This document shows, piece after piece, positions 13,646 to 58,620 of a stretch of DNA of 64,000 nt. Source of the stretch: Nageia nagi (lineage: Eukaryota > Plantae > Pinophyta); contig JBITNC010000001.1 in assembly GCA_050084985.1 (NCBI GenBank), forward strand, positions 80,228,001 to 80,292,000, in the 5' to 3' direction. Positions within the stretch are counted from its first letter, which is position 1; every line of letters starts with the position of its first letter. The translations under genes were made by a program, and so were the position numbers. The notes under the pieces were generated by a model. It saw only the letters and a program-made list of their open reading frames with translations, searched no databases and had not been told where the DNA came from.

Positions 13646-13648
13646 TTT

Positions 13649-13666
13649 TGGTGAACCTGATGTGAA
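13649..13666 (+). promoter_or_regulatory. Primer-binding site complementary to tRNA-Trp
   Basis: TGGTGAACCTGATGTGAA, 3 bp after the LTR. It matches the complement of the plant tRNA-Trp 3' end as recalled (TGGTGAACCCGACGTGAA), apart from two CpG>TpG changes. Confidence 0.8.
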
Positions 13667-16600: not shown

Positions 16601-19600
16601 TGTACTAATTTTAGAGATCTCAATAAAGCATGTGTGAAAGATGACTTCCTACTATCCAACATAGATATGATCATTGACAATTTGGTAGGTTATGAGATGT
16701 TATCATTTACGGATGGATTTTTAGAATACAATCAAATCAAAATCAAGGAAAGTGATAAACATAAAATAGCCTTTAGAACTCCTTGGGTAACTTTTGCTAC
16801 AAGGTAATGCCATTTGGTCTTAAGAATGTAGGGGCCACATATCAAAGAGCAATGATAGCCATGTTTCATGACTTCATTCATAAAATAGTAGAGGTTTATG
16901 TAGATGATATCTTGATAAACTAAAAGAATAAATAAGATCATGTCAAGGATATAAAAGCTACATTTGAAAGGATTAAGAAGTACAAGTTAAGAATCAAGCC
17001 TTAAAAATGTGTATTTGGGATATCATCAAGAAAACTCTTGGGGCACATTATCTCTTGGAGAGGAGTTGAAGTGGATCCAAAGAAAATTAAAGCCATCACA
17101 AAAATGTCTCCTCCTACAAATCTTAAGCAATTGAGAAGCCTTCAAGGTAAAGATTCAAGCTATTATAAGATTTATTTGTCAATTAACAAATAATATAGCT
17201 CCTATGTCTCATTTACTTAAGAAAGAAGTTGAGTTTAAATGGGATGTTAAGTGTCAAGAAGCATTTGATAGAATAAAAGAGTATTTGTTACATCCATTGG
17301 TATTAGCTCCATATAGGCATGGAGAACCTCTTTTGCTTTATGTATTAGCTACAAAACATGCATTTGGGGTAATGTTGGAAAATAAGGAAGAATATGGTAA
17401 AGAGAGAGTAGTCTATTTTATTAACAGAACATTGAAAGAGTATGAAACTAGGTACACACCCATTAAGAAGTAATGTCAATGTATAGTATTTTCTACTAAG
17501 AGATTGAGGCATTATATGATCAATAACACAACACATGTACTTACTTAGGTAGACCCATTAAGATATTTGATGTCAAAATGGATCATGTTACTTTAGGATT
17601 TTGACCTCAAGTTTGTGAAACAAATATCAGTTAAAGGGTAGGAAGTCATAGACTTTGTTGCAGAGTTTCCCAAGGAGGATAGTACAAAACTTAGAGAAGA
17701 ATTTTAGGATGAATGTGCTTTGGAAAAAACCACAAAATGTGTAGAAGAGGATCACTTATAGCCTTCTTTTGAAGAAAATAGGAATGCTGATGTTCTTATT
17801 TTAGAGGTGTCAAAACATTGGAAAATGTATTTTGATAGATCATAGTGTATGCAAGGTTCAAGAGTAGGAATAGTGTTGATATCACATTAGAATGATGTTA
17901 TTCCCATGTCATATAAACTATCATTTGAATGCACTAACAATATGCCAAAATATGAAGCTCTCATATTAGTATTAATAGCAGCTATGGAGATTGGTATTAC
18001 ACATTTGCATATTTATGGGGATTCATAGCTGATAGTGAATCAAGTCAATGAGATCTATAACACCAAGGATGAAAAGGTTATTTCATATAAATTTCTTGTT
18101 ACAAAATGCCTTGCTTTCTTTGAATAATATTAATTAGATAATATTTCAAGGAATAATAACAGGTTGGCTGATGCAATGGCAAGTGTAGCTTCTCTTATAT
18201 CAATTGAGATAGAAAGTAGGGAGACTACTTTCACTATCAATAACTTGGGAACTCCATCATTTATTGAGGAGGACTTGAAAATGGTATGTGTTGCTCAAAA
18301 GGTTGGTCATGAGGTAAGTCCTTGGTACCAAAACATATTTAGATATTTGAGGGATGACATTATTGATGCTATGCTTGATAAGAGAGAATAGATTAGAATA
18401 AAAATGCTTGCTATAAAATATGTTATCATTGGTGATATACTTTATAAAAGATCATTTAATGGTATTGTTTTGAGTTGTCTTCATGATGAGGAGATTGAAA
18501 TAGTATTAGAGCATACTCAGAGAGGGGCATGTGGAGATCACTTCAACAGAAGATTAGTTTATGACAAATTGATTAGGATGGGTTATTGGTGGCCCACCAT
18601 GGAACATGATTATTATGAACATGTCAAGAAGTGTGAGCAATGTCAAAAGCATGCATACTTAGAATTAACACCTACTCAAGAGTTGAACTATGTTACATCA
18701 CCATGGCCTTTCTCAATGTGGGCTTTGGATTTCATAGGTGTTATCAATCCTCCATCTAGTGAGGGGTATAAGTTTATCTTGGTTGCCACCAAATACTACA
18801 CTAAATAGGTTGAGACAATTCCTTTGAAGATAGCTATACAAAAACATGTTATAAATTTCATCAAGGAATATATCATTTGCAGATTTGGCATACCTCAAAA
18901 GTTGATCATGGATAATGGTGCAAATTTTACAAGAAAATATATTAGAGAATTTTGTAAAAAAATGAAGGTTGAAGAGATGATTTTCTTCAATTTACCATCC
19001 CCAAGGGAATGGACAAGATAAAGCAACAAATAAGATAATCAAGAAGATATTGGTATAAACTATCAAAAAGAATGGTAGAGATTAGCATAAACAATTAACA
19101 TATGCCTTATGGGCATATAGAACAACTAAAAAAATAGCAACAGGTGCTACTCCATACTCTTTTGTGTATGGTGATAAATTAATCATTCCACTTGAAATTG
19201 AGATGCCTTCTTTGAGAATTGCACTCAAAGATATCATGAAGGGACCACAACAATGGGAAGCAAGATTAAATCAACTAGAGGCATTAAATGAGAAAAGAAT
19301 TAATGCACTAGAGCATCTTAAAACATATCAATAAAGAATAAAGAGGGCCTATGGAAAGAAAATGGTTCCCAAAGCATTTGAGGTTGGACATATGGTTCTC
19401 CAACAGAATGTTTCTAATACTACAGCAAAAGATGAACTTAAAGGAAAGGTTAAACCAAATTGGGTTGGTCCATACATCATCATAGAGGTCTTTGGTAGAG
19501 GTGCATATAGATTGTCTACATTCGATGTGGAGGTTATCAAAAATCCCATCAATGCTAGGCACTTAAATAAGTATCACATCTAGGAGACCTATGGGTCATC

Positions 19601-19785
19601 CTATGCATCTATTTCTATAAAAATGTTACTACAGAAATAAGCATGGAATAGATGGCACAAAAATAAAAAATAGAAGGTCATTTTAGTATCATAAGAGGAG
19701 GGCCAATGCTCCATTTTAGCAGAAAAGAATAGCCCATAGTCCTATTGTACAATCAAAAATAGCAAAAATAAAGATAATTAGATAC

Positions 19786-20180
19786 CCCTTGGTGTAGAGT
19801 TTCAGCTCCCAGATTGTAAGATTTGCATGCCTCTTAGTATAGAGTTTCAGCTCTCATATCATCATCCTAGTTTTCTACCCCTTATTATAGATTTTTAGCT
19901 CTCATCATCATATCATGCCTCTTGGTGCAAAGTTTCATCTCTCATATCATCATCCTAGTTTCCTAACTCTTGGCATAGAGTTTTAGCTCTCATCATCATA
20001 TCATGCCTCTTGGCATAGAGTTTTATCTCTCATATCATCATCCTAGTTTCCTAACTCTTGGCATAGAGTTTTAGCTCTCAACATCACATAATGCCTCTTG
20101 GTAGAGTTCTAGCTCCACTTCTTATTGCAATATGCCTCTTGGCAAAGTTTTAGCTCCTAATTTTATCATTATGCCTCTCG
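19786..20180 (+). repeat. Tandem array in the Tat 3' UTR; alternating ~48- and ~40-bp monomers (88-bp dimer)
   Basis: About 10 copies of the core CCTCTTGGCATAGAGTTTTAGCTCTCA. Central copies alternate the tails ...CCTAGTTTCCTAA and ...CATATCATG. Confidence 0.9.
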
Positions 20181-20615
20181 GTAGGAAGTTCAACTTCCAC
20201 AAGATCAATGGATAGAATCATTAATGACATGAGATCATTACACTTCACATATCAAAATATATCAAAAAATATGGGTAATTATCATCAATGACCTCTTTGT
20301 AGATGGCTTTGGACCCTAGAACTCTTTCTTTTGTAGGTTATCATTGAAGCTCATGGAGCACATCAAAATCAACTGGGAACAACATGATGGATGTCATATG
20401 AGGGGGTTTTCTTTAACTCATACATTTTGTCAATATGATTTCTTATCTTTCTTATATATTTATCATAGTTTAGTATCAAAATAGATTGATTAGTGTTGGT
20501 ATTATGTTTGTCCATACTTATCAATATTTGATTGCTATGACATTTTGGTTATACTTTGAATGAAAAATATCAATGCACCTAGTGATTTTCAATTTCTTAT
20601 CCAAAGTGGGGCATA

Positions 20616-21412
20616 TGTTATCACATAAAATTAATTCATGCATTTAATTTAATAAATTAGGAAGTATGTGCCTACACTTATATGTCTAGTTCAAGAATGT
20701 TTATGATATTTTGGATATGATCAATATATATATATATATCATCGAATTACTATATTCTTATTTATGTAGGTACATATCGACCTAAGGAGTAGGTCATATT
20801 ATTATCTATATAAATATGGATCTAATAGTAAGTACACATTAATGAGATACATGATCCCATATCTAGTCTTGATGATGGCAGTTCTTTAAGTGTCTCTTGA
20901 CACTACCATTCAAGGATGGGTTTGTGTACTTCCTTATGCGAGCATCTTGACAATTCTAAACTTATCTAAGTATCAAATTGAGACCATTAAGAGTTTTTGA
21001 GGAGTCATAGAGTTAGTTTGGAAAGGAATACAATCTAACAAATACTATCAAATCTCCTTGTAGATGAAAGCAGACCATCAATGCTCCTTCTAAGCATGAA
21101 ATAGATCACCCATGGCTTTCTTTTTGCATCATCTTGCTTCATGACTTGAGGTGTAGACTCCATTCATTGTTGAGGCTTCATTAGTATCTTTCCTTCATCC
21201 ATATCAAGTACACTCCATGAGATAAGTATACAAATTCAATATTATTTGGTAATTTCATTTCAATTTTAGTTATTCAATTATCTTCTATATCAGCTTATCT
21301 TGTAATAAATTACTATCTGTTAGCTCAAAATTTACAAATAGATATATGTATCTTTCGAGATTGTACATATTTTAGGTATTTGCATTCTCAAATACACTTT
21401 TATTTGTAAATA
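20616..21412 (+). repeat. 3' LTR of the Tat element
   Basis: Follows the PPT; ends TTTGTAAATA (CA>TA), then TSD GTATT. Confidence 0.95.
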
Positions 21413-32369: not shown

Positions 32370-32590
32370 TACTATCCTATGGCCTGCTATCATTCGATAG
32401 TAACCTACAACCATTTGGTAGCAACCTACAACCACTTAGTAGCAACTTACAACTATTTGGTAGCAACTTGCAACCATTTGGTAGAAACCTACAACCATTC
32501 GATAACAACTTGCTACCACATGGTTGCATACTAAACCAAGTGGTAGTAAAAATGCAACCGCATGATAGCAACCTTTATTGGATGGTAGCT
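32370..32590 (+). repeat. 21-bp quasi-palindromic tandem array, left part of the hAT
   Basis: About 10 units like GGTAGCAACCTACAACCATTT / GATAACAACTTGCTACCACAT. Confidence 0.88.
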
Positions 32591-35639: not shown

Positions 35640-36330
35640 TATATAAATTTTAACAAATATAACATTCAACCATAACATTTCAAAGAATCAAATATAACAT
35701 AAGCATAACATTTCTAATATAAAAACAAAATCATAACATTTTAAATATTAAAATAAACTTAACATTTCAAATATAACATATAACATTTCAAATAAATGTA
35801 ACCATAACATTTCAAAAAAAACACAACCATATAACACTTCAAATAAGCATAACCATAACATTCAACTAGAAAATTCAATTACAACATAAATTTGAAATAT
35901 AAGATAACCATTACATAAATTTCAAAGATAATAAAATATAACCATAAAAACTATCAATGTAGTCTAAATCAAACTAGTCTTAACAATAACATAACCATTC
36001 AAATAAGTAGAACCATAACATTGAACTAGAAAATTCAATTACAACATAAATTTGAAATATAATATGACCATCACATAAATTTCAAAGATAGCATAACCAT
36101 CAACGTATTGTAAATGTAAAATAACATAACCATCAAAGTATTCTAAATCAAACATAACCATAGAAAATATCAATGTAGTCTAAACAAAATAGTCTTAACA
36201 ATAACACTAGAAACCATCCAAGTAGTCTAGCAAAAACCATCAAAGTAGTCCAATAGAAAACCATTAAAGTAGTCCAATAGAAACCATCAAAGTAGTCCAA
36301 TAGAAATCATTAAAGTACTAAAAAGTATTA
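35640..36330 (+). repeat. Repeat-rich spacer between the two convergent hAT genes
   Basis: Many AACCATAACATTTCAAA-like motifs; a ~90-bp block repeated at 35841 and 36001; about five 23-24-bp units AGAAACCATCAAAGTAGTCCAAT at ~36208-36318. Confidence 0.8.
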
Positions 36331-39865: not shown

Positions 39866-41029
39866 GTCTATTATTCCTTTCATCTAATTCACCAAAAAAA
39901 TTATACTTTTTTTTAGTAAATTCAAATTCTCCTTTATGTTTTAGAATTTTTAATTTAAAATCATCTCTACTATGAATCTAATTCACTTCAAATTTTCCAA
40001 GTTAGTTTTAAAAAAGGGCTCTTAAAATGATCTTTGATAACCATGATATCAAATAATTATAGCTCAAATAGATCATCAAATTAAATGATATGGGTATGCA
40101 AGAATACCAAAATTCTAACATGAAACCATAGGATGATATTAGTCTAAATATACCTATATGCCATAAAAATGATATAAATAAGCAAATCTATATTGATTGA
40201 AGGGATATAATTCTCCACTTTAGATGCAAGATGTAACCTAAATTTATCAAAAACTATACAAAATCAAGAATTAATGATACCAAATCTCAAAGGAATAAAA
40301 CTTACCTCAATCTTCACATGTTAAAGTGAAATTTGAAGATTGGAAGGTGAATATCCATGGTGTCAATAGTTTGTTGTCACACTTAAAAGATGTTAGATCT
40401 TATCAACTCAAATCTTTGGATAAAGTGAAAATCCCCAAAACATAGTCTACATATTTTATTTATAGAAAAGACAATTATAGTTGTATAAATGACTATGAGG
40501 TCATTATGATTTTTTGAACAATTATGCAATCATTCAGATGATTAGGTTATGTGTTAGAATCTTTTTTATGCCTAACATTTTTTATTTTTTATATATATCT
40601 TTCTATCTTCTCTTACCAATATATGTTTTTGGGTTGTTTACCACAAATCAAGAAGGAATATCAATATAGGTTTATCAATTAAGCAAATTATTATACCATT
40701 TATGCCCATAAAACTAGAAAATAGATTCCTTTGGTGATTGCAAGCCAAGTCAAAGGATTCATTAATACAAGTAAAAAGTTGATACTATTTATGGTCAGAG
40801 TTTTTAGTCAAACTATTACCATAAAAGGAATGCCAATTGTCCTATATGAATGAATTATATTTTCTATAAAAAGATGAATAAATACCATGCTATTATTTTT
40901 CCTATAGATAAGATTGGAAGAAGACATATAATAAAAAATTCCATGAAGGAATTAGGATCAAGATGTCTTGTAATAAATTCTGATTTAAGTTCTAAGTTTT
41001 AGAGGAGATGTATTGTAATGGAGAGCAAT

Positions 41030-44000
41030 ATGATTAAGATCATGTAATTAATTCAAGTAAGACAAATCCAAGAGTATAAGAGAATAAATAACTTTCTTAG
41101 AATATCAGTTAGTGATGATGGCTCTTCTCATGCCACTACATCATTTTCATTAAAACTAGAGGCCAAATTTGAAATCCTTACTTTTAGAGGAGACATAGAT
41201 GCCAACAAGATCAATAATTTGTTGAAACAACTTAAGATACAATTTCAAATTCAATGTGTTCATAATGATATTAAAATAATTTCATTTTCATAATTAAAAA
41301 TGGGACATCATGCACTGGTTTGGTGGGAGATTCATGTATAATCCCTTAAGCATGAAAAAGAACCATACATCTCTTTTAGGGATAAATTCAAGAATATTTT
41401 AAGAGATCAATTATATTAATTGGGTGATCAACATCATGAAATAACAATTTCTCCATCAACAAAGAGGGTAATTAATCCAAGAACACACAACAAAATTTAG
41501 AACATTAGCAATTTTTGTTATGATTTCTCTTAATGATCCTCAAATTTTAATGAAGTACATTAAAAGTTTGCATAGTAATTTACAAAATCTTACTATGTTA
41601 TTTAACCTTACTAAATTTGAGCTAGTTTTAATACAAGATTAATAAATTAAAGAAGATATGAGGCAAAAAAAAACAAATATGAAACTTCTAAGAAGAATTC
41701 AAACAATATAGGGGCCCAAGAACAAGGTAAATATAATGATAAAGACAAAGGCAAACAAAAACAACAAGAAAAGAAAACTACAAATACTTCAAAGAGGAAG
41801 AGTGAAATTAGGAATTTTTCACATTGTGACAATAATGGACATTTTGATGATAAATGTTTCAAGCTTCAACCCAAATTATATCCTTATAAGAAGAAGAAGA
41901 AAAATATGAAAAGTTTATTCAATTTTTAATACTGATTCATAAATTAATTAGAATTCTAAAAGTTTAGTGGGAGAGTTGGGGTTGAATACATACAATAATC
42001 CACATACATATCCTCTTGTAGGGCACAACAATATTTCAAATTATAAATCACCAAATAATATAAGTTGCAATTTAGCATAAGTAAATATTATCATGATGAA
42101 ATGTTAATTTATGTAATTAATTTAGATATATGTTATTTTGTGCTTGGAAATCCATATTTATGTGATAGATATGCCTTATATTACATAAACAAAATCAATA
42201 TAGGTTGATCAATTAAGAAAAGTATTATTTCATTCATGCCCATCAAAATAAAAATTAGATGCCTTTGGTGACTACAAGCCAAGTAAAAGGATTCATTAAT
42301 ACAAGTAAAAAGTTCATACTATTTATGGTCAGAGTTTTTTTCAAATTGTTCCCATAAAAAGACTTCCAATGGTACAATATGCAATGTAAAAAGACCACCA
42401 AAAATATATTTCTAGGAGAATTAGATGTAGGGATTGTTGTAGGACTTTCAATAGGTGTTAGTAGATCCATCATGTTTACCACCTAAGTGAGATATTCAAT
42501 ATGAAATATAGTTTCTTCCTAATTTCCCTCTTCTTAATAGAGAGTTGTATCGATAATCAATTTTGGAGAAAGAGAAGATCAAAAATTCAATTCAAAAGTT
42601 AGTTAATTAGGGTTTTATTAGAATTAATACTTCACCATGTTGGTAATTTATTATTTTGGTACCAAAGAAGGATGGTTTGTGGAGGATATGCATTGACTAT
42701 AGGCATTTGAACAACATCATCATTAATGATCGCTATCCATTACCATGAATAAATGATCTTATGGATCAATTACAAGGGGCAAGATTCTTTTCCAAGTTGG
42801 AATTGATGAGTGGTTATCACCAAGTGAGGATGAAAGAAGAGGACATATGGAAAATAATCTTCAAAAGAGGATAAGGCCTATTTGAATGGCTTGTTTTACC
42901 ATTTGATTTGTATAATACATGAACCACATTTTTTAAGGTAATGAATGAATTCCTTAGACCTTTAATTAATTCTTTTATTTTTGTACACATGGATGATATT
43001 CTTGTGTATAGCCATACTTGGGAAGAAGTTATGATACATCTTAGAAAAGTAGTTCAAACATTACATGTTGTAAAAATTTTATTTAAAATAAGTAAATATG
43101 AGTTTGGAAAATAGTCTTTGGTGTATTTAGGCAAAAGTTTTGTGGTGGAAAACTCAAGATAAATCCCATGAAAAGTAGAGCCATTACAATTGGCCAAGGC
43201 TAAGATATACAATATAAACAAGGAATTTTCTTGGGGTTATTCTATATTTTAAGAAGTTTATTGTTAATTTCTCCAATATTTCTTTACCTTTACATGACAT
43301 AATAGGTAAGAGACAATGTTTTTCATGGGGGTATTCACAAAAAACCTTAATTTAATTTTCTTAAATACATGATTATTAATGCACCTATCTTAGTACTTCC
43401 TAATTTACAACAAATGTTTGAGATTGACACTCAATCTAGTGAGAATACTATGGTACTGATTTTTATGTAAGGGAGAAGATCAATTTATTATCATTTTAAG
43501 AAGTTTCATCCAACAATTTTAAATTATCCCACTTATAATAATGAGTTGTATGCTCTAGTTCAAGAGGTGAGGAAGTATAAGCATTATGTGATGAGAAGGA
43601 GATAATTATCCATAATAATAATCAACCATTGCTATAATATAAAAATTAATCAAATTTGTAACAAACATGAAATTATCGATGTATGGGATACTTTACTAGT
43701 TCTATTTGGTGCTAAAATACAAGAAAATCCAACTACAAATGAAATTATTGGCATGCTATCTAGGCCTCTTATTGCAGATAAAAGGAGTTTCATTGGTCTT
43801 AGTTCTAGATCAAAAGGATTAGTAGTGGTCCTTCACCATTATAATTTTATGAATATGATACTAATGCATTTTTATTCATTTGTTTAGGAGTCTTTTTAGG
43901 AAGCTAATTTATAGGATTCAAACTTTATGTATGAGTATCAAAGTTGAAACACTCATCTACACCAAATTGTAAAGGTATGGATGGGCATCATGTTGATTAT

Positions 44001-45290
44001 GGAATTCTTTGTAAATTGAATTTATTTTGTGTTCTTAATAGTGAAAGAGTTAAATTGATCAAAGGAAAAACATAAAAAACTAATCATCATTTTGGAGTTA
44101 GAAAGATGGTCCTAACTTTGCAAAGGTATTTGTATTGACCTAAAATCCAAGATCAAGTTGCAAAATACATTCGAGGATATGTTATGTATTGTGCAAGAAA
44201 GCCAAGTAATAAGAAACTAGTTTTGTATCATTGACTTCTTATTCATAATCATCCTTGGAAGAGTATATCAATGAATTTAATAGATGGGTTTCCTATGTCT
44301 AAAATGGGACATGATTATTCATTTATTATGGTGGATCATTTTAGCAAGATGTGTGTTTTGATTCCATATAAGAAGAATATTATGAGACAAGAAGTTGTAT
44401 ATCATTTTTTTTAATTATGTGTATGTTTTGTTTGATTTTCCTAATTTAATTATTTAAAATAAGGATTCATGATTTCTAGATAAATTTTATACCTATTTGT
44501 GGTAGAGAATAGATACAAGGTTGAAGAGGAGTACCAACTTTCATCCTCAAATGGATGGTTAAATTGAATTGGTAAATATAATAATTATTCAACTCTTTAT
44601 AGGCTATTATGGTGAGCATTCTAAGACTTGGGATTATCATATTGTCCACATTCTATATGCATACAAAAGGGCAATCCATAATTTTACAAGCAAAGCACCA
44701 TTTGAGATATATTTTGGCTATCTTCCTCTATCACCTTTTAATTATATTTTTAGATAATAATAGGATAAAGAAGTTTAAATTTTGATAGAAGATAGACAAG
44801 CTAAAATTTTTATCGATTAGATTAGGCAAGTTCATTTCAAAGTTTGAAAGAAACTTAAAGCAAGTCAAAGTAAGTACAAGTTGATACATGAAAAGCATAA
44901 GGTTGATTAAAAAGTTTAAGTGGGAGATCATGTTTGGTTATATCTTAGTAAAGATAGGTTGCAAATATGAACCAAGAAGTTGAAACCAATTAGATATGGA
45001 TGATTTCATTTTATGGAGCAAGTGAGATCACATTCAAGTTTGATTTACCCACTTACATGAATATTTATTTAGTCATGAATGTGGAAAACTTAAAATTTTT
45101 TTATCCATAAATATTGATTGAAGAAGAATAAGAAGATAATCACATTTTTCCATCAGTTGAAGGCTTCATTCCTCACATCATGAATGCATTATAAGAAGAC
45201 TCATTTTTGTAAAAGAAGATGCATAGAAAAGGGAGGGATAAATAAGAAATTTGGTTGATTAGATTGAAGGAGAAAATGCTCAAACTGATT
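41030..45290 (+). mobile_element. Chromovirus-like Ty3/gypsy internal region, decayed, LTRs not recognised
   Basis: gag FEILTFRGDIDANKINN..ALVWWE and knuckle CDNNGHFDDKC (~41825); [30 protein letters not shown] and HMDD (42650-43000); RH ~43380-43770; integrase HPWKSISM..VDHFSK..FHPQMDG (44050-45100). Confidence 0.88.
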
Positions 45291-45890
45291 TGATTCTAGG
45301 AGTTGAGATTATCACAATCAATATTTAAGCTTGAAATTAGACATATCCATGTAGTTTAGTGATGTGGTGGTATAAGAAGTCTATTAGTAATGGTTTATTT
45401 CTTATCATATTTGGGCTTCTAGTGGTCCACATTATAGTTTCCTAGGAAATTGAACTATGAGAAGATATTTTTGGATTTGAATTATTTTCCTCTCCTGTAT
45501 ATTCCTAAAGGCTCTACATTTTGAGCTTGTTGAGGGATTGTGAAAGGTGTTTTGATGATTCTATGGGATTGTTGGAGTATGTTATTGACTATTTGAAGAT
45601 TTCGTATCTAATTCAAGGAGGTTACAGGTTGAAGAAGGAATTTTTCTATTCTACAATAGTGTCATGTCCATATTCTTCTTACTTATTATACCATTTGGTC
45701 CCCATAATGAAGAAGAGATGTTAAACTTGATGTTCATCAACATTAAGAGGAACTGGTAGAAATTTGTTTATGTTCCTTTATTTGATTATCATTTTTAATA
45801 TTTTTAATGATTTCCTTTAAGTATTTTACATCTTTTCAATGTAAAATTAGGGAATTCTGAGGTTAGGGAATTAATTCTGATTGAGGCTAT

Positions 45891-46600
45891 TAACCGCCTT
45901 CGTTACCTGTGTAAAGGATGGTAAACAGCCCGAGATCTGTATGAGAAAAGAAGCCGCCTCGTTTATTGAATTTCCGTCAGAAGTATAGTGATTAATACGC
46001 ATATAGGACATGCGGTTTTGGAATTCAGAGACATAAAAATGCTCGACGTCCAATTCAAGGACTACAAGAATGATTTTGGTGATTGTTCGTGCGAGATCTG
46101 CCAACAGGATCGTATACGTTGTAATAGTTTTGCTGAAACCCGATAGGAAGACTGCATTAGTTTTGTACTTGTATTAGAAGAAGATTACATGAGCATCGGA
46201 AAACAACATACCAGAATAGTGGATTTCCGTGTTGTGGCCATATTTTACTGCATATTTGAAACAATGAGTCTGAATGAGGTGGGTTGTGGATGCAGAAGCT
46301 CTTATAGACATTGTTGATGAAATAGCTATCAATGGGGTGTTCTGTGGCGGATCTTTGCTTGGCCTCCGCGGGCATGGCACATAGTTGTTGGAGGACTGAA
46401 TCTACGTCTTGAAGAAGAGTATCTGGAATTCCATGGTTGACAACTCTGAAAAATCCCCATTCTTGGCAAGCATTTTTCACTTTGGCAATGACCTCGTGAT
46501 AGTGGGCATCATGAGTTGTTTGTGCGAATGGTGAAAGGTCAATGAGAGGGAGAGCGGCTTCGAGACCAAGATCAGGGGAATTCTGCTGCGAGAACGGCAT
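45891..46600 (-). pseudogene. 2-oxoglutarate/Fe(II)-dependent dioxygenase (DOXC, GA20ox-like), frameshifted and 3'-truncated
   Basis: Exon 1 46600-46212 encodes DIOX_N (LPLIDLS..ACQEWGFFRVVNHGIP). A 79-bp GT-AG intron spans 46211-46133. Exon 2 from 46132 reads CKTITTY..MRINHY. The Fe-binding SHTDLGLFTILY..EGG lies one base out of frame after ~45952, and homology stops at ~45891, before the distal His and RxS motifs. Confidence 0.9.
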
Positions 46601-47083
46601 GGTGGAAGAACTTTGGAAGGCAGATGACAGCCAAAAGATATGTAAAACGGCAGAAAGTATCACAAGAATACAGCACACGATGAACGTGGCCGGCAGTGGT
46701 GGGGTTTGTTATTAAAAAGCTAAGATAGTGTGACGGGTATCGAGGTGGAATGTTCTGAGCTGTGTTGGATAATCGAACAAGACAAATGACGACTTCCGGA
46801 AGGAATACCACCGTTAAAAGGGGCGAGGCGTGAGCCTAGAATCTATTATAGTAGGAGCTCCACCTATAAACCCTACTATATAATAGCTCTTCCCGGTCTT
46901 AGGGTTGGCGGTGTCTGAATGCCGAACATGTGATATGGGAACGGCACATAGGTTTATTGGTTAATGATGTTCGGTGCTTAGTATAGCCTCATCTTATATA
47001 ATAGTCTCACGATCATGTGTGTAAGTATAAAATTCTAAAATTGGAATAATGTTGTAATCTCTTTTAATAAGAAGATTGATTTT

Positions 47084-50000
47084 TTGATAGATATATTTAA
47101 TAGAGTAGAAGAAGTCATAGAGAGAGCACATTCTAGAAATAGAATCATTGTTGAATCAAAAATAGAGTCTCTCTACGAAAAAATTGATTTATTGGTTTTA
47201 AAAGTAGAACCAAAGAAAACTACTTCTTATTGGGAACCCAAAGAGTCCAGCCATGACTCTGCCTCTTCTTCTGAGACTTCTGCTAGTACCCAAACCTAGT
47301 GTAAAGTAAAACAGTTGGCTGAAAAGTTGCTTTTAGTTGAGTATACCAAAAAAGCACTTGAAAAAGATTTTCTACCAGATAAAAAGGTGAATATGGCATA
47401 ATCTCATATGTTTGAGATTTTTAATGATGAAAAAGGTTAAGGAGAAACTTCTCAAGCCCAACCTTTGAATAGTACAGCAAGAACTCAAAATCTTTAGCTT
47501 TCCTATTATAAGATTAAATGTAAATCACCAGAATAAATATGAGAAATGATCCATGGTATTTTAGGATGGTCTAACAACCACATAGAATAGTTAAACAAGG
47601 ATCCTTACACTACAACTTAGCAAGTAGCTATTGGATTTGTTGGTATTTTAAAAGAGTGGTGGGATAACATCATGGAACAAAATCAGAGATTAATTTTATA
47701 GAATAGTATAGTTGGCCTTTGCAATACTATTATAGCATAATTTATTGGAAGTTTAGAACAAAATTTTGAGATTACCAAACAAAAATTCATGTCAGCTCGA
47801 ATTTGTGACATGAGTAAACTTAAAAAATATTAGTGTAAAATGTAAGGATGGTACTACAATTCTAGCTAGATACATAATGCATTAATGAAAATAAGGTACA
47901 TTGAATCCTTTTCTGAATTCTTCAGAGAGGCTTATAAAAAGAACATTACTATTTTAGGTCTTAATAAAGAAACACTTTTTTTTGCTCAAATCAATTAAAT
48001 TATTAATCAGACACAGAGAGTTGTGTCTAGAGCAGAGAAAAAAAAAGAATTAAAAAAGTAACATAAGCTTTTGGGAACTTCATTCTATCAAGAAAATATG
48101 AAAGAAGACTTTGATTGTTATTATGAACCAAAAAAAAAAGTTTCTCAAAGGTAAACAGTTTCATAAGTCTTACAAGTTTTTCAAATGCATAGATTGTAAA
48201 AATTATAGTACATCTTACAAGAAAACTCCATGGCATAAAAAGAGAAAAGTCTTTCATAAGCAATCTCATTTTTCAAAGAAACATATTAAGTGTTTTATCT
48301 GTAATGGGTCACATTATGCTATAAAGTGTCCTCAGAAAGTAAAATCTAGTGCTTAAAGAAAGGTTAACATGATTTCTTCTTTAGATATATGTGAATCAGA
48401 TTATCAATTAGTGTTATATACAAGTGGATTTGATTCTGATATTATATATAGTTCAGATGAATTTGTAAACCTTAATAAGCAAAATTCTAATTCTTCTTCC
48501 AACATTGATTCTAATGTAGATTTCCAGATCCATATGTTCAACCTCAGTAAACCTACTATTCTTGATATCTTAGAATAGCTTCAATAGGCTCAAGAGCATT
48601 TAAAAAAGGTTCCCTATTACGATCTTACTCAAAAAACTTATTATGAAAATCTAATTAGGTCCTTATAGAATTAGTATTTCAATGCTTTGTCAACTCAGTA
48701 TTCTACATCTGCAACATAGAAATGTGGTGAATTAGCAACTTCTTCCTCTACAGAAATGGTAAAATAATTTGCTACTTCTGAGCATTATAAGTTTTGCACT
48801 TGTAATGAGTATATGATGTCCCAAGGTTTACTTAAACCTAAAATTAAAAAAGTTTCATTAAGAAAAGAAACACACTATCTAGATATTCTTAGAAAGCAAC
48901 AGTTTGCAGAAAGAACAGAGTGGAAGATAAATAGAATAGAAAAATTGTAGAACTTCCTCAGAAAGGTAAAAGTTGAGTTTAAAGATCTGTTAAAAGAAGA
49001 AGATTACAATGAAGTAATTCTATATGAAACAGAATTAACAACAGCGATTTCTTAGAATCAAAGCCTTCCCACAAAAGCTACAAATCTTAATATAAATTTT
49101 GTCAAACACACTTATTCCCCTGTTTGCACCATGATAATCAAAATTGATGGTTTTAAAGCTTACAATCTTGATGCTCTCATTGATATAGGAGGAGAATGCA
49201 GTTTGGCATGAAGAAATGTAATCCTATAAGATCTTTGGATAGCAGATAAGGTTGGTCTAACTTTTAACTCTAAAAAATCTATATCCAATCTTTTTGCAAA
49301 AGTACCCTTTAAAGTTGGTGAAAAAATAGTACTCTTCAAGCTTGTGCAACATGAAATGAAAAATTATGATCTAATGATAGGTTATGATAATATGTCTAAG
49401 TTAATACCCTTCAACATTACAACAAATAATTATTTAAAATTATGAGTCAAGTTGCCATTGAAAAGCTTTTAAGAGTTTACTATTTTAGTCTAAGATCCAA
49501 AGCCAAAGATTAAGAACACAGATTGGATTTCAACATCCATAAATCTCAATTTTTTAAATTTGAATGAGCTAATAAAAAAAATAAAGGCTAATCTGTGCTC
49601 TAAAGATCCTATTGCATTTCAACATAGAAAAGTTCATGAATGTGGGATAGAATTAAAGCTTGAAGAAAAGAATGGATAAAAGGTAGAGCCCAAATTTAAG
49701 GTTCATCATATTGGTTCAAACCTTATTTGAGAAAAGAATGAGATTAAGAAATTTTTGATTTGTTAGCAAAAGGGTTAATAGAAAAATCAAATTCTCCTTT
49801 GGCTTGTACAACATTTTATATAAATAAAAGGTTAGAGGGAAAAGTAATAAATTATAAACCTCTTAACAAATAGGTATTACCAATACAACATCCTATTCCA
49901 TCCAAAGATGAGTTGTTAAGAAGACTTCAAAAAATTGCTATTTTTTCAAATTTTGATCTCAAGTTTGGTTTTTGGTAAATCTCTCTTAAACTGTCACATA

Positions 50001-50940
50001 GGTACAAAATAGCATTTGTGGTATCTAGACAATAGTATCAGTGGACTGTGCTTCCATTTGGACTTAAAATAGCTCTTATTTTTCAAAAAATCATGGATGA
50101 TATCTTTGAATCCTATCATTCTTTCATTTGTGTATATATTGATGATATTCTTGTATTTAGCAAAGATGTGAAATAGCATTTAAAACATCTTGAGTAGTTT
50201 CATGATATTTGCTATGAAAATGGTTTAGTACTGAGAAGATCAAAAAGTGTGTTTTGTATAAAAGAAGTTCAATTTCTCAAATTCCATAATTAAAGTTGGA
50301 AAAGTACAGTTACAAAATCATATTTTTGAAAAGATCAAAAACTTTCTAGATGAGATTCTCATAGTTAATTAACTTTAGCAATTTCTTGGTTGTGTAAATT
50401 ATGTGTCTGGTTATTATCAAGCTATTACATCTAATTGAAAGTTGTTAAATACCAGACTCAAGAAAAATGCTCCTTCTTGGACTCCTACAATGACTAAAGC
50501 AGTCAAAAGAATCAAAGATAAATGTTCTAAACCACCTCCTATGTCTCTCCTTAGATCCATTTTAAAGTAATTGAAATAGATGTAAGTGATAAGTTTTGGA
50601 ATGCTATTCTGAAAGAAAAAACAAAAATAGGTGAAAAAATTTGCAAGTATGCTTCTAGTAGTTTTTTTGGAGCTTAGTTAAGATATCCTTCTCCTCATAA
50701 GGAAATTCTTGTAGCAATAAAAGCAATTAAATCATTTCAGTTCTTTATTTAGTTTGAAAAGTTTATTCTAAGATCTAATTTGAATAATATGAAGGGATTT
50801 CTAAGTAAAAAGTTTGATAAAGCTTCAGACAGTAACAAAATGCTAAGGTGGAGTTTGTGGTTTGATGACTATGATATCACTTTTGAGTATATTTCAGGAG
50901 TTAAAAACTCTATTGAGATTTTCTTACTCAAGAATACCAT
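47084..50940 (+). pseudogene. Viral ORF1 polyprotein: coat protein, zinc knuckle, aspartic protease, RT, RNase H
   Basis: CP GFVGILKEWWDN (47633-47668); knuckle CFICNGSHYAIKC (48291-48329); protease ALIDIGG (~49175-49193); YIDD (50135-50146); RNase H ~50570-50937. Many premature TAG/TAA/TGA stops. Confidence 0.88.
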
Positions 50941-51690
50941 GTCAGTATGGTTACACATTGGAGAGCTAAATAGATAGTCATAAGCACTTTGTCAAAACTA
51001 TTTGAAGTATACTAAAGGAACTCTACATCTTGGTATACACATGAGCTATTCATTGAACAAAGAATGGCTATTTCTTTACCAGATGGAAGAATTATTAATG
51101 TTCCTAGCATATATCCCATACATATCAATATTGTTAACCATTTAATGGGATCTAGAGCTTTATTATGCCATCTAAGAGATATATATTGCAAACATTATTG
51201 ATATAATATAAATGAAGATTATTTTATAAGAAGGATAATAATTTTCATAAATAGGATTCATGGCATTTATCAATGGCCAACTCAAGATCCAAATCTTGAA
51301 ATTAAGATTAATGGGTTCAAACTCATTTACAAACCGTACAAAGGATATTTCTTTACCCTTCTTACTTATCAAAATTCCATATTTTCTCATAATTATTTTG
51401 TAAGGTTTGGTATAGGTTTAAGAGATAATTCTGGAGAAATTTTTTATTAGTTCAAAGAATGGTTTATGAAGTTTGGCTTAATAGTTGACCACTTTCCTCC
51501 TCAATATCATGATCTTACACCTCATTACCATTTCAAAATGATGATTGACATCCATGCCACCTGGCTGTTTCAATGGAAGTGGATAATTGAGAATCAAATC
51601 CTTACAGATGAATCACTTATTAAAGTCTTTTCAAAATAGATTGAAACAAAGTGGTATCCAACTCAGCAATGCATTCGTAAAGCATGGTAG
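50939..51690 (+). pseudogene. Viral ORF2, florendovirus ORF2-like, function unknown
   Basis: The ATG abuts the end of RNase H. Stitched translation ..TYQNSIFSHNYF..FKEWFMKFG..HFPP..WLFQWKW..IETKWY follows the YQN-xxx-HSWF / WWxxFG / PWIxxW / KWW pattern recalled for florendovirus ORF2. Confidence 0.7.
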
Positions 51691-51924
51691 GCCTTTTAAC
51701 CCATGTTAAATAATATTGGTTGATAATTTGATTTGGTTAAATCAAATCGGGAGTGCCCATCATAGCATCCTTATCCACTCAGGGTGTGAGTGGGAATAAA
51801 TTTATTATAAGTGGCTTGCTTTAAGTTACATCAAGTTACCATACAAAATATGGTGTAGCTTTAATAGCTTATATTTAGATTTAAGAAATATTTATTATAA
51901 TCTGTTGATCCATATTTGAGCCAT

Positions 51925-51932
51925 TATAAATA
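51925..51932 (+). promoter_or_regulatory. Putative TATA box of the viral pregenomic promoter
   Basis: TATAAATA followed ~12 bp later by CTCATTTGT, in the intergenic region after ORF2, where caulimovirid promoters lie. Confidence 0.5.
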
Positions 51933-52049
51933 AAGCATTCAAGCTCATTTGTGATTGCCTTATAAATATGGTGTAGTTAAGAGGCCTTGTATTTGTGGAC
52001 TAGTTTGTGTCTATATTAGATGTATGTTTTTGCATCTACATTGTGTTTT

Positions 52050-53110
52050 TTTGGTAGTTTTTTATTGCCTTGTTAGGTTCCTTCACAAGTCTCATAGCCC
52101 AACTCATGCTTTCTATCCTTTTCCTTAAGGTAGCTTATTTGAGTCCTTCGTGGATCTTATGGTGGTCTTCCCATTACCTTATCTTGTGACTTGCCATTTC
52201 TTCTTGTCAGAATTAAGGGGGGATTTTCAACTACAAATGCTTCCTCTTTTTTTATGGATCTCAACATACGAGCTCCAAGCTTGGTTCTCTAATGATGTGT
52301 ACTTTATTCTTTACATACAGGCTCCTCTCTTGGCTCTCTAATGATGTGTGCTCCTTATTCTCCATGGTATATAAGCTCCTCACTTATCTCTTGGCCTGGC
52401 TCTCTAATGACATGTTCATAAGAATTATGCTAATTTTTTTGTTTATGGTCTACTAGTTGCATTGTCAATATACTTTTCATAGTGGAGTTCATGCCCTATT
52501 TTTAGGTTGAGGGACTCTCTTTGTTGGTGTTGATTGAGTAGTGTTGTGTGGCTTGCTCCTGCATATTGGTAGCTCTTTGATCCTAATTTCTTTGAAGGTT
52601 CTTCACCTTCTAGCTTATATTTGTTCGTTGGCATCACTATACCGGATTCAATGAGCATGATTTCTTGAGATGTGATGGAAGTTATCCACCTTGTTGCTCT
52701 TCTCTCTCTCTTTTAAGGGGGATTTTTTCTTATGGGTTTTCTCCTTTTCTCTACTTGTGAGAGATTTTTTTTACATGAGTACCTAATCATGCCTTGTTGC
52801 TAGGACTCATTTTTTTATAAATGTGCCACTTTACCTCCTTGTTCACTTAAGGGGGGTGTTAGAGTATATTATACTTGGTATAATATGTGCTTAAGTTATC
52901 TAGGAGTATTTTATTCTTTATTCCTAGGTTTAATTATTTGTTATTTTGTTATGATTAGATCATAACAAATATTTATCATCTTTTGGATTTTATCCTCATG
53001 CATGGTTATCATTCATTTGTCCACTAGCTTGTACTTTGCCCTATTTATTTGGGCTGTACTTCATTATATAATATCAATTCTTATATTTCCTTTCACTCAA
53101 CTTCTTATCT
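52050..53110 (+). mobile_element. 3' end of an LTR retrotransposon (PPT plus short LTR starting at 52857)
   Basis: TTAAGGGGGG|TGTTAGAG is a PPT/LTR junction. Further TTAAGGGGGATTTT motifs occur at ~52214 and ~52713. Both outer boundaries are approximate. Confidence 0.55.
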
Positions 53111-54186: not shown

Positions 54187-57100
54187 TGTTGAACTATGTG
54201 TGACATTGAGAGGGGGAGTAAATTAGTGTACCCTAATACTTAACACAAAATAAAAAAATTAAACTCAAAATAATCACACAAATTGCACCACACAACACAA
54301 GATTTATAGTGGAAACTTAATGTGGGGAAAAACACTCTTCAAAGGACTATTTGGACTCCCATTGAAATCCAGTCTCAAAAGTATGGTTGAATTTTACAAT
54401 ATTTTTATAGCACCAACTACAAGGAGCACCAACCTTGGAATTTAGCAACACTTACTTCAAGGAACACCAACCCCTGTTGACAAGCACCAACTTAAAAAAT
54501 CTAAAATTCTCTAATAAAAATTATAAATCTTGTCACAAGACCATGAGTAGTCTAGTTTATAAAATCTTCTTCTCTAAAATCTTGTCATAGTCTACACACT
54601 GATAATCATGCTTCATACATACTGATAAATCCAAACATACTATCTAAAAACTCATTTTGAACACACCCAAAACAAAAACCCTTTATTCAACCAAAACCCT
54701 TTTCTTGCAACTCAATCAAAACCCTCCTCTGCAACCTGCAAATAAAAACTCCACCCCAAAGAAATGTAAAATTCTCAAATATTTTTGTAACTAAAAAAGT
54801 AGGAAAAAAGAGCTCTAAAGGTATTTTTGAAGAGCCATAACTTTTTACTAATTAAACCATTTAAATCAAAATTTGGACCACATATTCTCCATATAATCAA
54901 ATACATTATGTAAACATTTTAAGGTCTACATCCTTATATTTTTTACATAGCACTTCTTAAAAAATATCCTCCGATGAAGATTTGCAAACATTTCGTTAAA
55001 TAGTTTGCATAACAAGTCTGGAAAAAATAGAAAAAAATGATCTTAGACCTATTTTTTGAAAGCCATAACTTTTTATTATGAATAGTTTGCATAACAAGTC
55101 TGGTATATTCATCTATGATCACCATGAATTTCATTATCCAAGTCCTCTTGGATAGCATTTTGTCAAACACTTCATATGCTTAGTTTTGTGCCTATTAGAG
55201 ATTCTCATACTTTAGGACCTCAAATTGAGATGATTCAAAATATAAAGTTACTCATCTCACCAAGTTATACATGTACAAAATTTGAAATTCTAAATTTGAA
55301 GACTTCGAGACCCCAAAACAACCATCCAACTATTCCATGACTTGCCAAAATTCGTGCTTAGAATTGGGAAAAGTTATAAAGTGGCATTTTATAGCTTGTA
55401 CTATTTTTGCTTTGATTATTGGATTGATCTAAAATTTGTACCAAATATTCTTTGTATATATTAATATATTTATTTTAAATTTTATACTCTGAATCATCAC
55501 TGTTTACTCGCAATTTGACTTGTACAAAGCCAATTTCACCCAAATTTTTTAACTATTCCAAAATCCATAATAGTTCATGAAACCAAAATATCATGGAATT
55601 TGATGATTCCAATGTTGCACACAACTTTTTTTATCATCCCAAAAACTTATCCAAACCATCTTTGGCTTTTTATCACCTTTCTTTTGCATTTTGGCCCCCT
55701 TGACAGCTTTTGGTACCTCGTGACAACTTTGTCCCTTTGTTGTTTTTGCATTCGATAACTTTGCAAATCTTGTTGATGTCATTTATTTGACATGTGCAAC
55801 CATGGAAACCATATGCATAGTGATCTCATCATGTTGATAATAATGACAACACCGTTACACCATACTCAACAATCTCTTCCTTTGGAATTATTAGCAACAC
55901 AAATGCAAAAACCTATTACTCTTCTCCCCCTATGACAAAAAATACAAAAGGGTGCCTTGGACTCCCCCTGAGTCCATACACACAATACTTAGGTGTAAAT
56001 TATACAAGAGAAAAAAGATAATAAAGTACAAAATTACTCCCCCTAATATTGTGCACCCAAAAACTATTTTATTGCCTAGGCAATGTCACCACTCATAATT
56101 TCTTTCATAGGTACTCAAAAACATCCTTGGGTAATGGTTTAATGAAGATATTTACTACTTGCTCTGATTTGAGAACAAATTCCAAATTTATCTCTTCTTC
56201 TACAATATTTTCCTTCAAAAAATGGTACCAAATGGTAATGTATTTTGTTATTGAATGCATGATCAGATTCTTGGAAATATTGATTGCACTTGTATTATCA
56301 CACATAACTAAAATGGATTCAATGATCTAAATACCTAGATCCTTAATCATTTATTTCATCTACAAAATATGTATAAAGCATGATGTCATTGTTATGTACT
56401 TTATTTCCATTATGGACAATGATGACAATTCCTATTTATTGATATACCAACTAACAAGATTATTGCCCAAGTAAAATGCACCACCATTGGTGCTCTTCAT
56501 ATCATATACACACCCTTCCTAATCAGCATCTAAGAAAGCAATGAGTGTGAAATCCTTCCCCTTGGGATACCATAGGCCATAGTCTAATGTACCTTTGAGG
56601 TGCCAAAAAATTTACTTTAGTACAATCACATGCATCTCCTTTGGATTTAGCTGAAATCATGCAACCATGAACACTTCTTGAAGTATGTCAAGTCTATTAG
56701 CTATCAAATATAATAAGCTCCCAATCATTGACCTATACATAGTCTGATCCATTGATAGGGACTTATCATCCTTGCTAAGCTTGCAATCTATTTTCATAGG
56801 AGTGCTAACAAGCTTGAAATCCTCCATAGTGAACTTTTTCAGCATCTCCTTACATACTTGATTTGTGAAATAAAAATTCCATACTTCAACTGATTAACTT
56901 GCAAACTAAGAAAATATAAAATTTCACCTATCATTGATATCTCAAACTTTGTTTGCATTTGGTTAATAAAATCTTTGCACATTTCATCCTTACTACCTTC
57001 AAAAATAATATCATCAACATAAACCACAATGATAACTTGATAATTATTTTCAAATTTAATGTAGAGATTACTATCCATCATACCCTTTTTGAAACCCATT

Positions 57101-58620
57101 GATAAAGATATGCATCAAGCTAGAGTACCATGCCTAGGATGCCTATTTTAGACCATAAAGTGATTTTTTTAATTTGCACATAAAATCTAAGTTTTTACTT
57201 ATTTGAAATTCATATGGTTGCTCAATGTAGACTTCCTCCTCAATATTTCCATTAAAAAATGCTAATTTTGCATGCATATGATAAACCTTATAGTTCTTAT
57301 ACACTGCCAAAGCAAGAAACATGTAGATAGCCTCTAATCCATCTACATGAGTAAAGGTTTCTTCAAAATCAATACCTTCAACCTAAGCATACCCTTTGTA
57401 AACCAAACTTGCTTTGTTTCTTATCACTTTCCCATCTTCATTAAGCTTTTTGGAAAAAACCCACTTGGTGCCAATCACATTTTTGTTCTTGGACCTTTGT
57501 ACCAACTTCCAAGTCTAATTATTTTCAATCTACTCTAACTCCTCATACATTGCCTTGATCTAACTCTCATCCTAACTTACCTCTGCAACATTCTTTGGTT
57601 CTATACTTGAAATAAGGGATTACATTCTTATTGTTCTTTCGTATGAACTCCACTACTCGGGTTTCCAATTATTTGATCATTTGGATGATCCTTTTGCCAT
57701 TCACCTATTTTATGTTTTTGATTTTTCTCCATATCTAAATCACTATGTGATTCACTAGAGACATTCTTTGATTGCTTTTTTGGTTATTCGTCCACCTCAT
57801 CTACCTCAATGTATTCTTGATAAATCAAAAATATTTCATCATCATCTTTTGAAGGTATTCTCATCTTATCAATCTTGACATTTGCACTCTCAATAATTTT
57901 TGTGAGTATTTTATTGTAACACTTATAAGTCTTGATTTTTTTTTAGTAACCAAGGAATATACCTTCATCCATTCTATTATCAAATTTGCCAAGATTTAAT
58001 TCCATCTTCTTGATGTAGCACTTACTCCCAAATACTTTGAAGTATCTTTTTGATGCCTTTTTTTTGAACCATAACTCATAAGGTGTATTACTCTCATGAG
58101 GTCTCAACATACACATTTTCTAAATATAAACCATTGTGTGGAATTATTTCCAAATCCTATTAGCTATGTTGCTTTCTATAAGCATTATTCATGCACTTTC
58201 TTAAACTAACTTGTTCTTTCTTTCCACCACACCATTTTGTTGAGGTGTCCTTGCTGTAGGAAATTATCTCCTAATATCATACTTGTGATAAAACTCATTA
58301 AAATCATTTGAAATAAACTCACCTCCTCTATCTGATCTCAAACATTTGATCCTCCTCCTAACCTAATTTTTTGTTTGGTTCTTAAAGGTCTTAAATTTTT
58401 TAAGTGCTTCTAACTTGTGTTTCAAAAACAATATCCATGTCATCCTAGAATAATTATCTATGCATAACATGAAGTACTTATCTTCATTTATACTTTGCAT
58501 CCTCATAAGACAACATAAATTAGTATGAAAAAGCTATAGGAATTTGCTAGAATAATACTCCTTTGTCTTGAAAGTGGATCTGGTGAGCTTACCCTATTGA
58601 CATGAAGAATAAATATTTCT
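54187..58620 (-). mobile_element. Second Sirevirus-like Ty1/copia, 5'-truncated (INT-RT-RH-3' LTR)
   Basis: Integrase CLRSDRGGEF and TPQQNGVVERKN (57900-58600); RT VIGTKWVF and VVYVDDII (56650-57600); RH CDNTSAI..KPLPKD (56105-56305). PPT at 55872-55885. LTR 54187-55871 has TGAGAGGGGG 20 bp from its end, as in the LTR at 22944. Confidence 0.9.

What the first reader, a model, noticed from the sequence alone, without database searches (positions are those of the whole stretch)
46832..51952. Compact florendovirus-like pararetrovirus with no movement protein
Seen: leader, then a ~150-aa coiled-coil/low-complexity N-terminus, then CP, knuckle, AP, RT, RH, ORF2 and TATA in ~5.1 kb, with no integrase or LTR. 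No 30K movement-protein motifs were recognised, and there is too little room for that domain before CP. Known: Caulimoviridae are generally 7-8 kb or more and encode a 30K MP; florendovirus ORF1 is MP-CP-AP-RT-RH, and bipartite florendoviruses have been proposed. Inference: this is one component of a bipartite virus, a helper-dependent satellite, or a cell-autonomous MP-less lineage between retrotransposon and virus.
Basis: partly seen in the sequence, partly recalled or inferred. Interest (0 to 1): 0.85.

Follow-up and report, generated by a model that had tools for sequence, protein, structure and literature searches.

The report
Decayed pararetrovirus fragment lacking movement gene
A heavily decayed copy of a DNA plant virus (Caulimoviridae) sits in this likely-gymnosperm genome without its movement-protein gene, most likely because this one copy is cut short or deleted at its front end rather than because the virus itself lacked that gene.

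Summary
The anatomy is real: coiled-coil region, capsid with zinc knuckle, protease, RT, RNase H, ORF2 and a TATA-like box in about 4.9 kb. There is no integrase, no LTR and no movement protein (MP) in any frame. A host dioxygenase gene lies directly upstream, so no room is left for MP. It is probably not a florendovirus: its nearest proteins are from Taxus, Ginkgo and an unnamed 1768-aa polyprotein (P0040), and those long enough to tell carry MP. From position 47039 the copy runs colinear with P0040 residues 459-1764 (1298 codons vs 1305 aa); P0040's first 458 residues, which hold MP, are simply absent. The copy is dead (48 stops in 1537 codons, frameshifts, a gap in RT). The 200-nt 'leader' has host-promoter-like GC and CpG and no full primer-binding site. 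Best reading (0.70): a 5'-truncated or privately deleted integrant of an ordinary MP-bearing virus. An MP-less genome component (0.22) is not excluded, because homology starts at a methionine-bearing motif. No sister copy could be obtained, so the decisive test is open. MP-less components are already described in grape and sorghum.

The parts
46212..46600 (-). Host 2-oxoglutarate/Fe(II) dioxygenase gene, first exon (not viral); bounds the element on the left
   Evidence: PF14226 DIOX_N E 1.3e-17; exon limits read by eye
46832..47030 (.).
   Evidence: GC 41-42%, CpG kept; change point 46945-47028; no MP or linker homology; folding z -0.39; no Rfam match
47039..47480 (+). N-terminal linker of ORF1, starting at the N-W-x-N motif, with a likely coiled coil and a Ser-rich patch; in MP-bearing relatives this part follows MP
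   Evidence: aligns with Taxus P0028/P0029; motif at residue 319-487 in MP-bearing relatives; 'virion-associated-protein-like' is a recalled label, not tested
47481..48290 (+). Capsid protein region, broken by stops and one frame change near 48100
   Evidence: DUF7746 at 47513-47689; best hits P0028 101 bits, P0029 96 bits
48291..48329 (+). Zinc knuckle, C-x2-C-x3-H-x4-C spacing
   Evidence: read directly; same spacing in P0040, P0031, P0033, P0044; x4 spacing in P0009, P0011, P0059, P0037
49137..49412 (+). Aspartic protease, catalytic motif degenerate
   Evidence: PF02160 E 1.7e-4
49721..50549 (+). Reverse transcriptase; YIDD intact; stops, a frame change near 50290 and a 6-7 codon gap in a conserved N-terminal motif
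   Evidence: PF00078 E 1e-22; 51% to P0040; gap seen
50567..50935 (+). RNase H
   Evidence: PF17917 E 7e-12
50939..51700 (+). ORF2, about 250 codons, broken; homologous to florendovirus-type ORF2
   Evidence: L003 E 4.5e-8, L009 E 1.1e-4 among 35 targets
51701..51955 (+). Likely viral promoter region with a TATA-like box at 51924; viral-type composition ends about 30 nt later
   Evidence: TATA pattern; GC 30%; AT skew turns to -0.39 after 51955

Best explanation
This is a dead, single endogenous copy of a caulimovirid, likely from a gymnosperm clade-B lineage, that holds the 3' three-quarters of ORF1 plus ORF2 and the promoter, and that most likely lacks MP because this copy was truncated on capture or deleted at the locus. 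Shown: the domains, their order, the decay, the absence of MP, and colinearity with an MP-bearing relative from the N-W-x-N motif onward. Inferred: the parent virus had a genome of about 7 kb or more, with MP at the start of ORF1. Its DNA was captured during double-strand-break repair about 400 bp upstream of a host dioxygenase gene (the mechanism proposed for such elements in PMC13308828), then methylated and mutated. Two sub-cases cannot be told apart: (a) the viral junction lies at about 46950-47030 and the 'leader' is host or other non-viral DNA (about 0.45); (b) the 'leader' is viral and MP plus linker were lost from this molecule or locus only (about 0.25).
For: Colinearity: P0040 residues 459-1764 (1305 aa) match 47039-50932 (1298 codons), all 8 intervals within 17 codons; a P0040-sized ORF1 would start at 45665, beyond the host exons. 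The three long relatives of this lineage all carry PF01107: P0040 E 2.5e-14, Ginkgo P0044 E 1.1e-15, P0031 E 1.7e-9. Taxus P0029 has 69 further in-frame residues before the motif. Private decay: 48 stops in 1537 codons, 4 frame changes in ORF1, and a gap in a conserved RT motif. The CpG-rich host island runs unbroken from about 45880 to 47010 and then stops; the best change point is 46977-46978 under 3 Markov orders, 7-14 log units better than 46832. No full primer-binding site. Base rate: of 80 florendovirus-type loci fetched, 14 had a forward capsid hit with at least 1.95 kb upstream; 11 had MP there, and the 3 without were rearranged copies (L023 and L032, identical in RT, and L052). Loci with less upstream DNA and reverse-strand L040 were not counted.
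Against: Homology begins right at a motif preceded by a methionine in P0028, P0029, P0040 and P0044, a plausible alternative start; the Taxus gene model P0028 starts there. The 5 bases at 46832 match the primer-binding-site tail; that word occurs 11 times on the + strand of the window and once in 46600-47040. A left end at the primer site is what a linear reverse-transcription product would give (established mechanism, recalled). 207 nt fits the 64-869 nt from primer site to first long ORF in the fetched loci. 4 of 15 post-primer stretches in those loci are 9 or more points richer in GC than their locus, so GC-richness does not exclude a viral leader. CWG is low in 46832-47010 (o/e 0.22), unlike the host island (1.07-1.20). 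The test for linker homology upstream of the motif has little power: the true downstream homologue scored only 5.6 bits against a shuffled 95th percentile of 3.4 and maximum of 8.4.
Confidence: 0.7

Rival explanations
1. The copy records a real MP-less genome component (primer site, 200-nt leader, ORF1 starting at the coiled coil, CP-AP-RT-RH, ORF2, promoter; about 5.5-6 kb as a circle). It would replicate and package itself but borrow MP from a partner component or helper virus sharing its intergenic region.
For: Homology starts at a methionine-bearing motif; possible primer-site tail 207 nt upstream; all other core domains kept in order at full length. Precedent: grape florendovirus component A sometimes lacks MP (PMC4241990, passages), and sorghum/switchgrass ePVCVL2 lacks MP (PMC5491270, section 9).
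Against: No second copy with this junction and no partner were found, though these searches hold little gymnosperm DNA. The 'leader' looks host-like in GC and CpG. The known MP-less components also lose all or part of the capsid. The intergenic region here is incomplete.
Confidence: 0.22
2. A cell-autonomous, never-moving lineage between LTR retrotransposons and caulimovirids.
For: Only the absence of MP, integrase and LTRs.
Against: The RT sits inside Caulimoviridae (100/100 split from gypsy rows), next to MP-bearing P0040, so any loss of MP would be secondary. It keeps the post-MP linker and a florendovirus-type ORF2. Without integrase or MP it has no evident route to new cells or loci (inference).
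Confidence: 0.04
3. MP is present but too decayed or diverged to detect, or lies displaced nearby.
For: The copy is strongly decayed and profile searches lose power across frameshifts.
Against: Only 207 nt lie between 46832 and the motif, against roughly 550 nt for the domain; upstream is a host gene. No MP signal anywhere in the 64 kb, while the same queries found MP in 14 of 80 fetched loci.
Confidence: 0.02

Closest known systems
Gymnosperm endogenous caulimovirids of clade B (gymnendoviruses and new OTUs; Diop 2018 PMC5766536, Vassilieff 2026 PMC13308828); nearest proteins Taxus chinensis KAH9298135.1, KAH9291699.1, KAH9299475.1, Ginkgo Gb_05161 and Gb_35857, and unnamed P0040
   Same: Single polyprotein in the order linker-CP-knuckle-AP-RT-RH; N-W-x-N motif; x3 knuckle spacing (P0040, Ginkgo); RT 51-54% identical; grouped together in the RT tree (85/84)
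   Different: No MP in this copy. The exact OTU could not be named, since no reference OTU sequences were on hand; RT identity is under the 62% OTU threshold, but the copy is decayed
Florendovirus (Geering 2014, PMC4241990)
   Same: Two-ORF layout; ORF2 is homologous, although that paper calls ORF2 florendovirus-specific
   Different: No MP; ORF2 about 250 codons against 45-58 kDa; capsid similarity far lower (28 bits to P0006 vs 98-102 to Taxus); different knuckle spacing; RT 48-52% and outside the florendovirus rows in the best tree (AU p 0.33, not rejected)
Bipartite florendovirus component A / non-autonomous ePVCVL2 (PMC4241990, PMC5491270)
   Same: RT-bearing element that can lack MP; similar size range (5.5-6.9 kb)
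   Different: Those lose all or part of the capsid (the sorghum form lacks the zinc finger), occur as many independent copies and share a complete intergenic region with a partner. Here capsid and knuckle are kept, one copy is known and no partner is known

Membership tests
Caulimoviridae (as source of the sequence) | RT and RNase H that group with caulimovirids rather than Ty3/gypsy | tested here: met
   (100/100 split from 4 gypsy rows)
Caulimoviridae (as source of the sequence) | Capsid with zinc knuckle, and aspartic protease, upstream of RT | tested here: met
Caulimoviridae (as source of the sequence) | No integrase, no LTRs | tested here: met
Caulimoviridae (complete genome) | 30K movement protein | tested here: not met
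   hence filed as a fragment derived from a caulimovirid, not as a complete member
Caulimoviridae (complete genome) | tRNA-Met primer-binding site | tested here: inconclusive
   none within 2 mismatches in the element; 5-base tail at 46832; 3-error hits are background (161 of 500 random pieces)
Caulimoviridae (complete genome) | Circular episome of 7.1-9.8 kb | not testable with these tools
   one integrated copy only
Florendovirus | ORF1 with MP-CP-AP-RT-RH | tested here: not met
   MP absent
Florendovirus | ORF2 homologue after RNase H | tested here: met
   shorter than described
Florendovirus | RT within the florendovirus clade, at 62% identity or more | tested here: inconclusive
   48-52% to angiosperm florendovirus-type RTs; best tree places it with Taxus and P0040 (85/84); AU p 0.334. 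The florendovirus rows were labelled by me from host and layout, not from named references
Florendovirus | Angiosperm host | not tested
   host not given; gymnosperm inferred from nearest viral proteins only
Bipartite / non-autonomous component | Many independent whole copies with the same structure | not testable with these tools
   no genome held; no run listed
Bipartite / non-autonomous component | Complementary partner sharing over 90% of the intergenic region | not testable with these tools
   no partner in the window or in 80 loci, which are of another lineage
Bipartite / non-autonomous component | Complete intergenic region | tested here: not met
   viral-type sequence ends about 30 nt after the TATA-like box; no full primer site
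Ty3/gypsy LTR retrotransposon | Integrase and LTRs | tested here: not met

The most novel reading that the evidence does not exclude
A gymnosperm caulimovirid lineage had a genome component that dropped MP but kept a full capsid, zinc knuckle, protease, RT, RNase H and ORF2, starting translation at the coiled-coil methionine. It would be a self-replicating, self-packaging component that depends on a partner only for cell-to-cell movement, a division of labour different from the components described in grape, rice and sorghum and independent of them.
Probability: 0.2. Interest if true: 0.6.

Novelty: new member of a known kind. Interest (0 to 1): 0.27.

Why it matters
As a truncated copy it is one of the tens of thousands of endogenous caulimovirid pieces known in vascular plants (47,135 RT loci in PMC13308828). 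Two small additions stand either way: a florendovirus-type ORF2 homologue in what is likely a gymnosperm lineage, and an insertion at the edge of a host dioxygenase promoter. If the MP-less junction proves shared, it would add an independent case of genome splitting in reverse-transcribing plant viruses, with a new partition (movement alone outsourced). Such forms could have been missed, because at least one gymnosperm survey rebuilt genomes only from copies holding MP-AP-RT-RH (10.1101/170415, methods passage).

Tried and rejected
Sister copies: no host genome is held. No sequencing run was listed (not evidence either way). Viral contigs gave no relative for the RT, P0040 or P0065; the alignment query there could not run. 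The leader motif scan gave 1 hit (L081), a 21-nt match with no wider similarity, taken as chance. Metagenome contigs gave 80 loci, none above 52% RT identity; 79 fell among florendovirus-type rows and L059 with a fern row. Earlier scan findings: nothing in 4 look-ups. Protein searches with the capsid region for long homologues gave 0 and 1 distant protein, P0065. ORF2: no Pfam hit; a profile of 34 florendovirus-type ORF2s did not detect it (score -1.5, null 95% 0.8), only pairwise comparison did; the PDB search used the wrong frame and is void; no ESM Atlas look-alikes were obtained. The leader does not fold better than shuffles (z -0.39) and has no Rfam match; the sigma-70 scan does not apply to a plant. 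No target-site duplication of 7 nt or more at either candidate left end; the 6-mers found are at chance level. A heptad count was not decisive (9 of 17). No poly(A) tail after the right end, so a LINE-made retrocopy was set aside (by eye). The 112-row tree finished only in quick mode; the careful tree used 24 of those rows, chosen by me. Searching 13 of 14 supplements of PMC13308828 for two RT motifs and three terms gave nothing.
Full report
1. What is there. Read frame by frame with X at stops, 47039-50935 gives a caulimovirid polyprotein: an N-terminal linker, capsid (DUF7746, E 5e-5, under the curated cut-off), a C-x2-C-x3-H-x4-C knuckle at 48291, protease (PF02160, E 1.7e-4), RT (PF00078, E 1e-22) and RNase H (PF17917, E 7e-12). 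A second ORF runs from 50939 to 51700, and a TATA-like box sits at 51924. No integrase was hit in six frames, and no terminal direct repeat appears among the 20 largest of 24 repeat families shown. The copy is dead: 48 stops in the 1537 codons of six homologous segments, four frame changes in ORF1 and one in ORF2, and a 6-7 codon gap in a conserved RT motif.

2. MP is absent. PF01107 was not hit at E up to 10 in six frames of 45800-47650 or three frames of 46832-47650. Four natural MP stretches found nothing in the window below E 0.7, while they found MP in 14 of 80 fetched loci. A profile from six MPs gave no domain above 0 bits in the six frames of the window. Left of 46700 lies a host 2-oxoglutarate dioxygenase gene on the minus strand (DIOX_N, E 1.3e-17), so MP cannot be hidden further upstream.

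3. Lineage. A full HMMER scan of 1.84 billion representatives with the N-terminus and capsid gave 31 hits. The best are Taxus chinensis models (P0028, P0029), followed by a fern model and Ginkgo models (P0031, P0033) and a short unnamed 65%-identical piece, P0034. Against the window, Taxus capsid proteins score 98-102 bits and florendovirus-type P0006 scores 28. The protease-tether stretch matches Taxus P0014 and unnamed P0040 (98-102 bits), with no hit from P0006 or P0009. The knuckle spacing is shared with P0040 and the Ginkgo proteins. In a careful RT tree of 24 rows the copy groups with P0014 and P0040 (85/84, not starred); forcing it into the 11 florendovirus-type rows is not rejected (AU p 0.334). 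So it is likely a gymnosperm clade-B caulimovirid and not a florendovirus, but RT alone does not prove this. ORF2 is nonetheless homologous to florendovirus-type ORF2 (L003 23.8 bits, L009 12.7; best shuffled score 9.7 in 200 shuffles). PMC4241990 (passages) describes ORF2 as specific to florendoviruses; 'ORF2' does not occur in the main text of PMC13308828.

4. What is missing. P0040 is a 1768-aa polyprotein with MP at residues 40-194. The window follows it from residue 459 to 1764: 1298 codons against 1305 residues, every interval within 17 codons. The reading at 47039 starts at an N-W-x-N motif found at residue 319-487 in P0067, P0044, P0040 and P0009, downstream of MP where Pfam places it. 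The 'coiled-coil N-terminus' is therefore the ordinary post-MP linker, not a new domain; likening it to the virion-associated protein is my recall, and one paper search did not test it. About 1.37 kb of ORF1 is absent, as are the primer-binding site and the RNA leader after the transcription start. Adding these back gives a genome in the usual size range (inference).

5. Is 46832-47030 viral? For host origin: GC 42% and 5 CpG in 169 nt, reached by 0 of 4748 windows of the viral body. CpGs continue unbroken from the dioxygenase gene to 47010. The best host/virus change point is 46977-46978 (2-unit interval 46945-47028) under three Markov orders. For viral origin: it begins with five bases matching the tail of the tRNA-Met primer site, a word seen 11 times on this strand of the window. 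Its length fits primer-to-ORF1 distances in the fetched loci. 4 of 15 post-primer stretches there are GC-rich. Its CWG content is low, unlike the host island. No homology to MP or to the pre-motif linker was found, but that test is weak. I put viral origin a little under even.

6. Mechanism. Most likely a piece of an ordinary MP-bearing viral genome was captured in DNA-break repair next to a host promoter, or lost its front end afterwards, and then decayed (0.70). Broken and rearranged copies are common: among the 14 of 80 fetched loci with enough DNA upstream of the capsid, 11 had MP and the 3 without were rearranged. The main rival (0.22) is a true MP-less component that borrowed MP from a partner. 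Its best support is that homology starts at a motif preceded by a methionine in four relatives, with a possible primer-site tail 207 nt upstream. A cell-autonomous intermediate (0.04) is at odds with the nested position among MP-bearing viruses.

7. Compared with what is known. RT-bearing, MP-less components are in print: grape florendovirus component A sometimes lacks MP along with capsid (PMC4241990, passages), and sorghum/switchgrass ePVCVL2 lacks MP and a zinc-finger capsid (PMC5491270, passages and section 9). I found no description of an MP-less form that keeps capsid and knuckle, or of any such form in gymnosperms, in six library searches. All five gymnosperm genomes rebuilt in 10.1101/170415 have MP, but they were seeded from MP-holding copies (passages). 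Also seen: PMC13308828 (parts 1-4 of 10, passages, first part of supplement 2, 13 of 14 supplements searched), and passages of PMC5766536, PMC10377300, PMC10458927 and PMC8256270. Sequence supplements of these papers, which I did not read, could name the OTU or hold an MP-less form.

8. Verdict. The observation mostly stands; the exciting inference is unproven and less likely than plain truncation. With no host genome and no sister copy from any search, whether the junction is shared remains open. New member of a known kind (endogenous caulimovirid fragment); interest 0.27.

Noticed in passing
window 45880-46600, - strand: Host 2-oxoglutarate dioxygenase gene (DIOX_N) head-to-head with the viral copy. 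Its second exon appears to change frame just before the H-x-D motif, and no further dioxygenase domain was hit in 40000-46200, where a gypsy element lies. Likely a pseudogene, yet its CpG island is intact (o/e 0.6-1.25).
   Followed up: partly
window 47039-51955: The viral body has lost CpG (o/e 0-0.18) but not CWG (0.5-1.0), whereas neighbouring retrotransposon DNA has lost both (CWG 0.13-0.31). This suggests a younger insertion or a different methylation history.
   Followed up: partly
window 51956-53100: T-rich stretch right after the viral TATA-like box, ending near 52850 in a purine run followed by TG, by eye like the 3' end and LTR start of a retrotransposon; no match elsewhere in the window. 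51846-51876 is loosely repeated at 51964-51994 (82%).
   Followed up: partly
window ~41100-44300 (+) and ~56000-58000 (-): Decayed Ty3/gypsy element (capsid, RT, RNase H, integrase zinc finger) and decayed Ty1/copia element (RVT_2) flank the locus.
   Followed up: no
window 12850-21400: LTR-like direct repeats 7.77 kb apart (79-92% alike) around a distant RT at about 16430-17050: probably a full-length LTR retrotransposon.
   Followed up: no
L023:1032-2629, L032:2042-3549, L052:1678-2984: Rearranged florendovirus-type copies: RT followed 420 nt later by capsid (L023 and L032, identical in RT, probably one locus), and an inverted RT/RNase H piece just before the capsid (L052).
   Followed up: partly
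window 4909-5220, 32371-32559, 35823-36327: Short tandem arrays with periods of 12, 21 and 23 nt.
   Followed up: no
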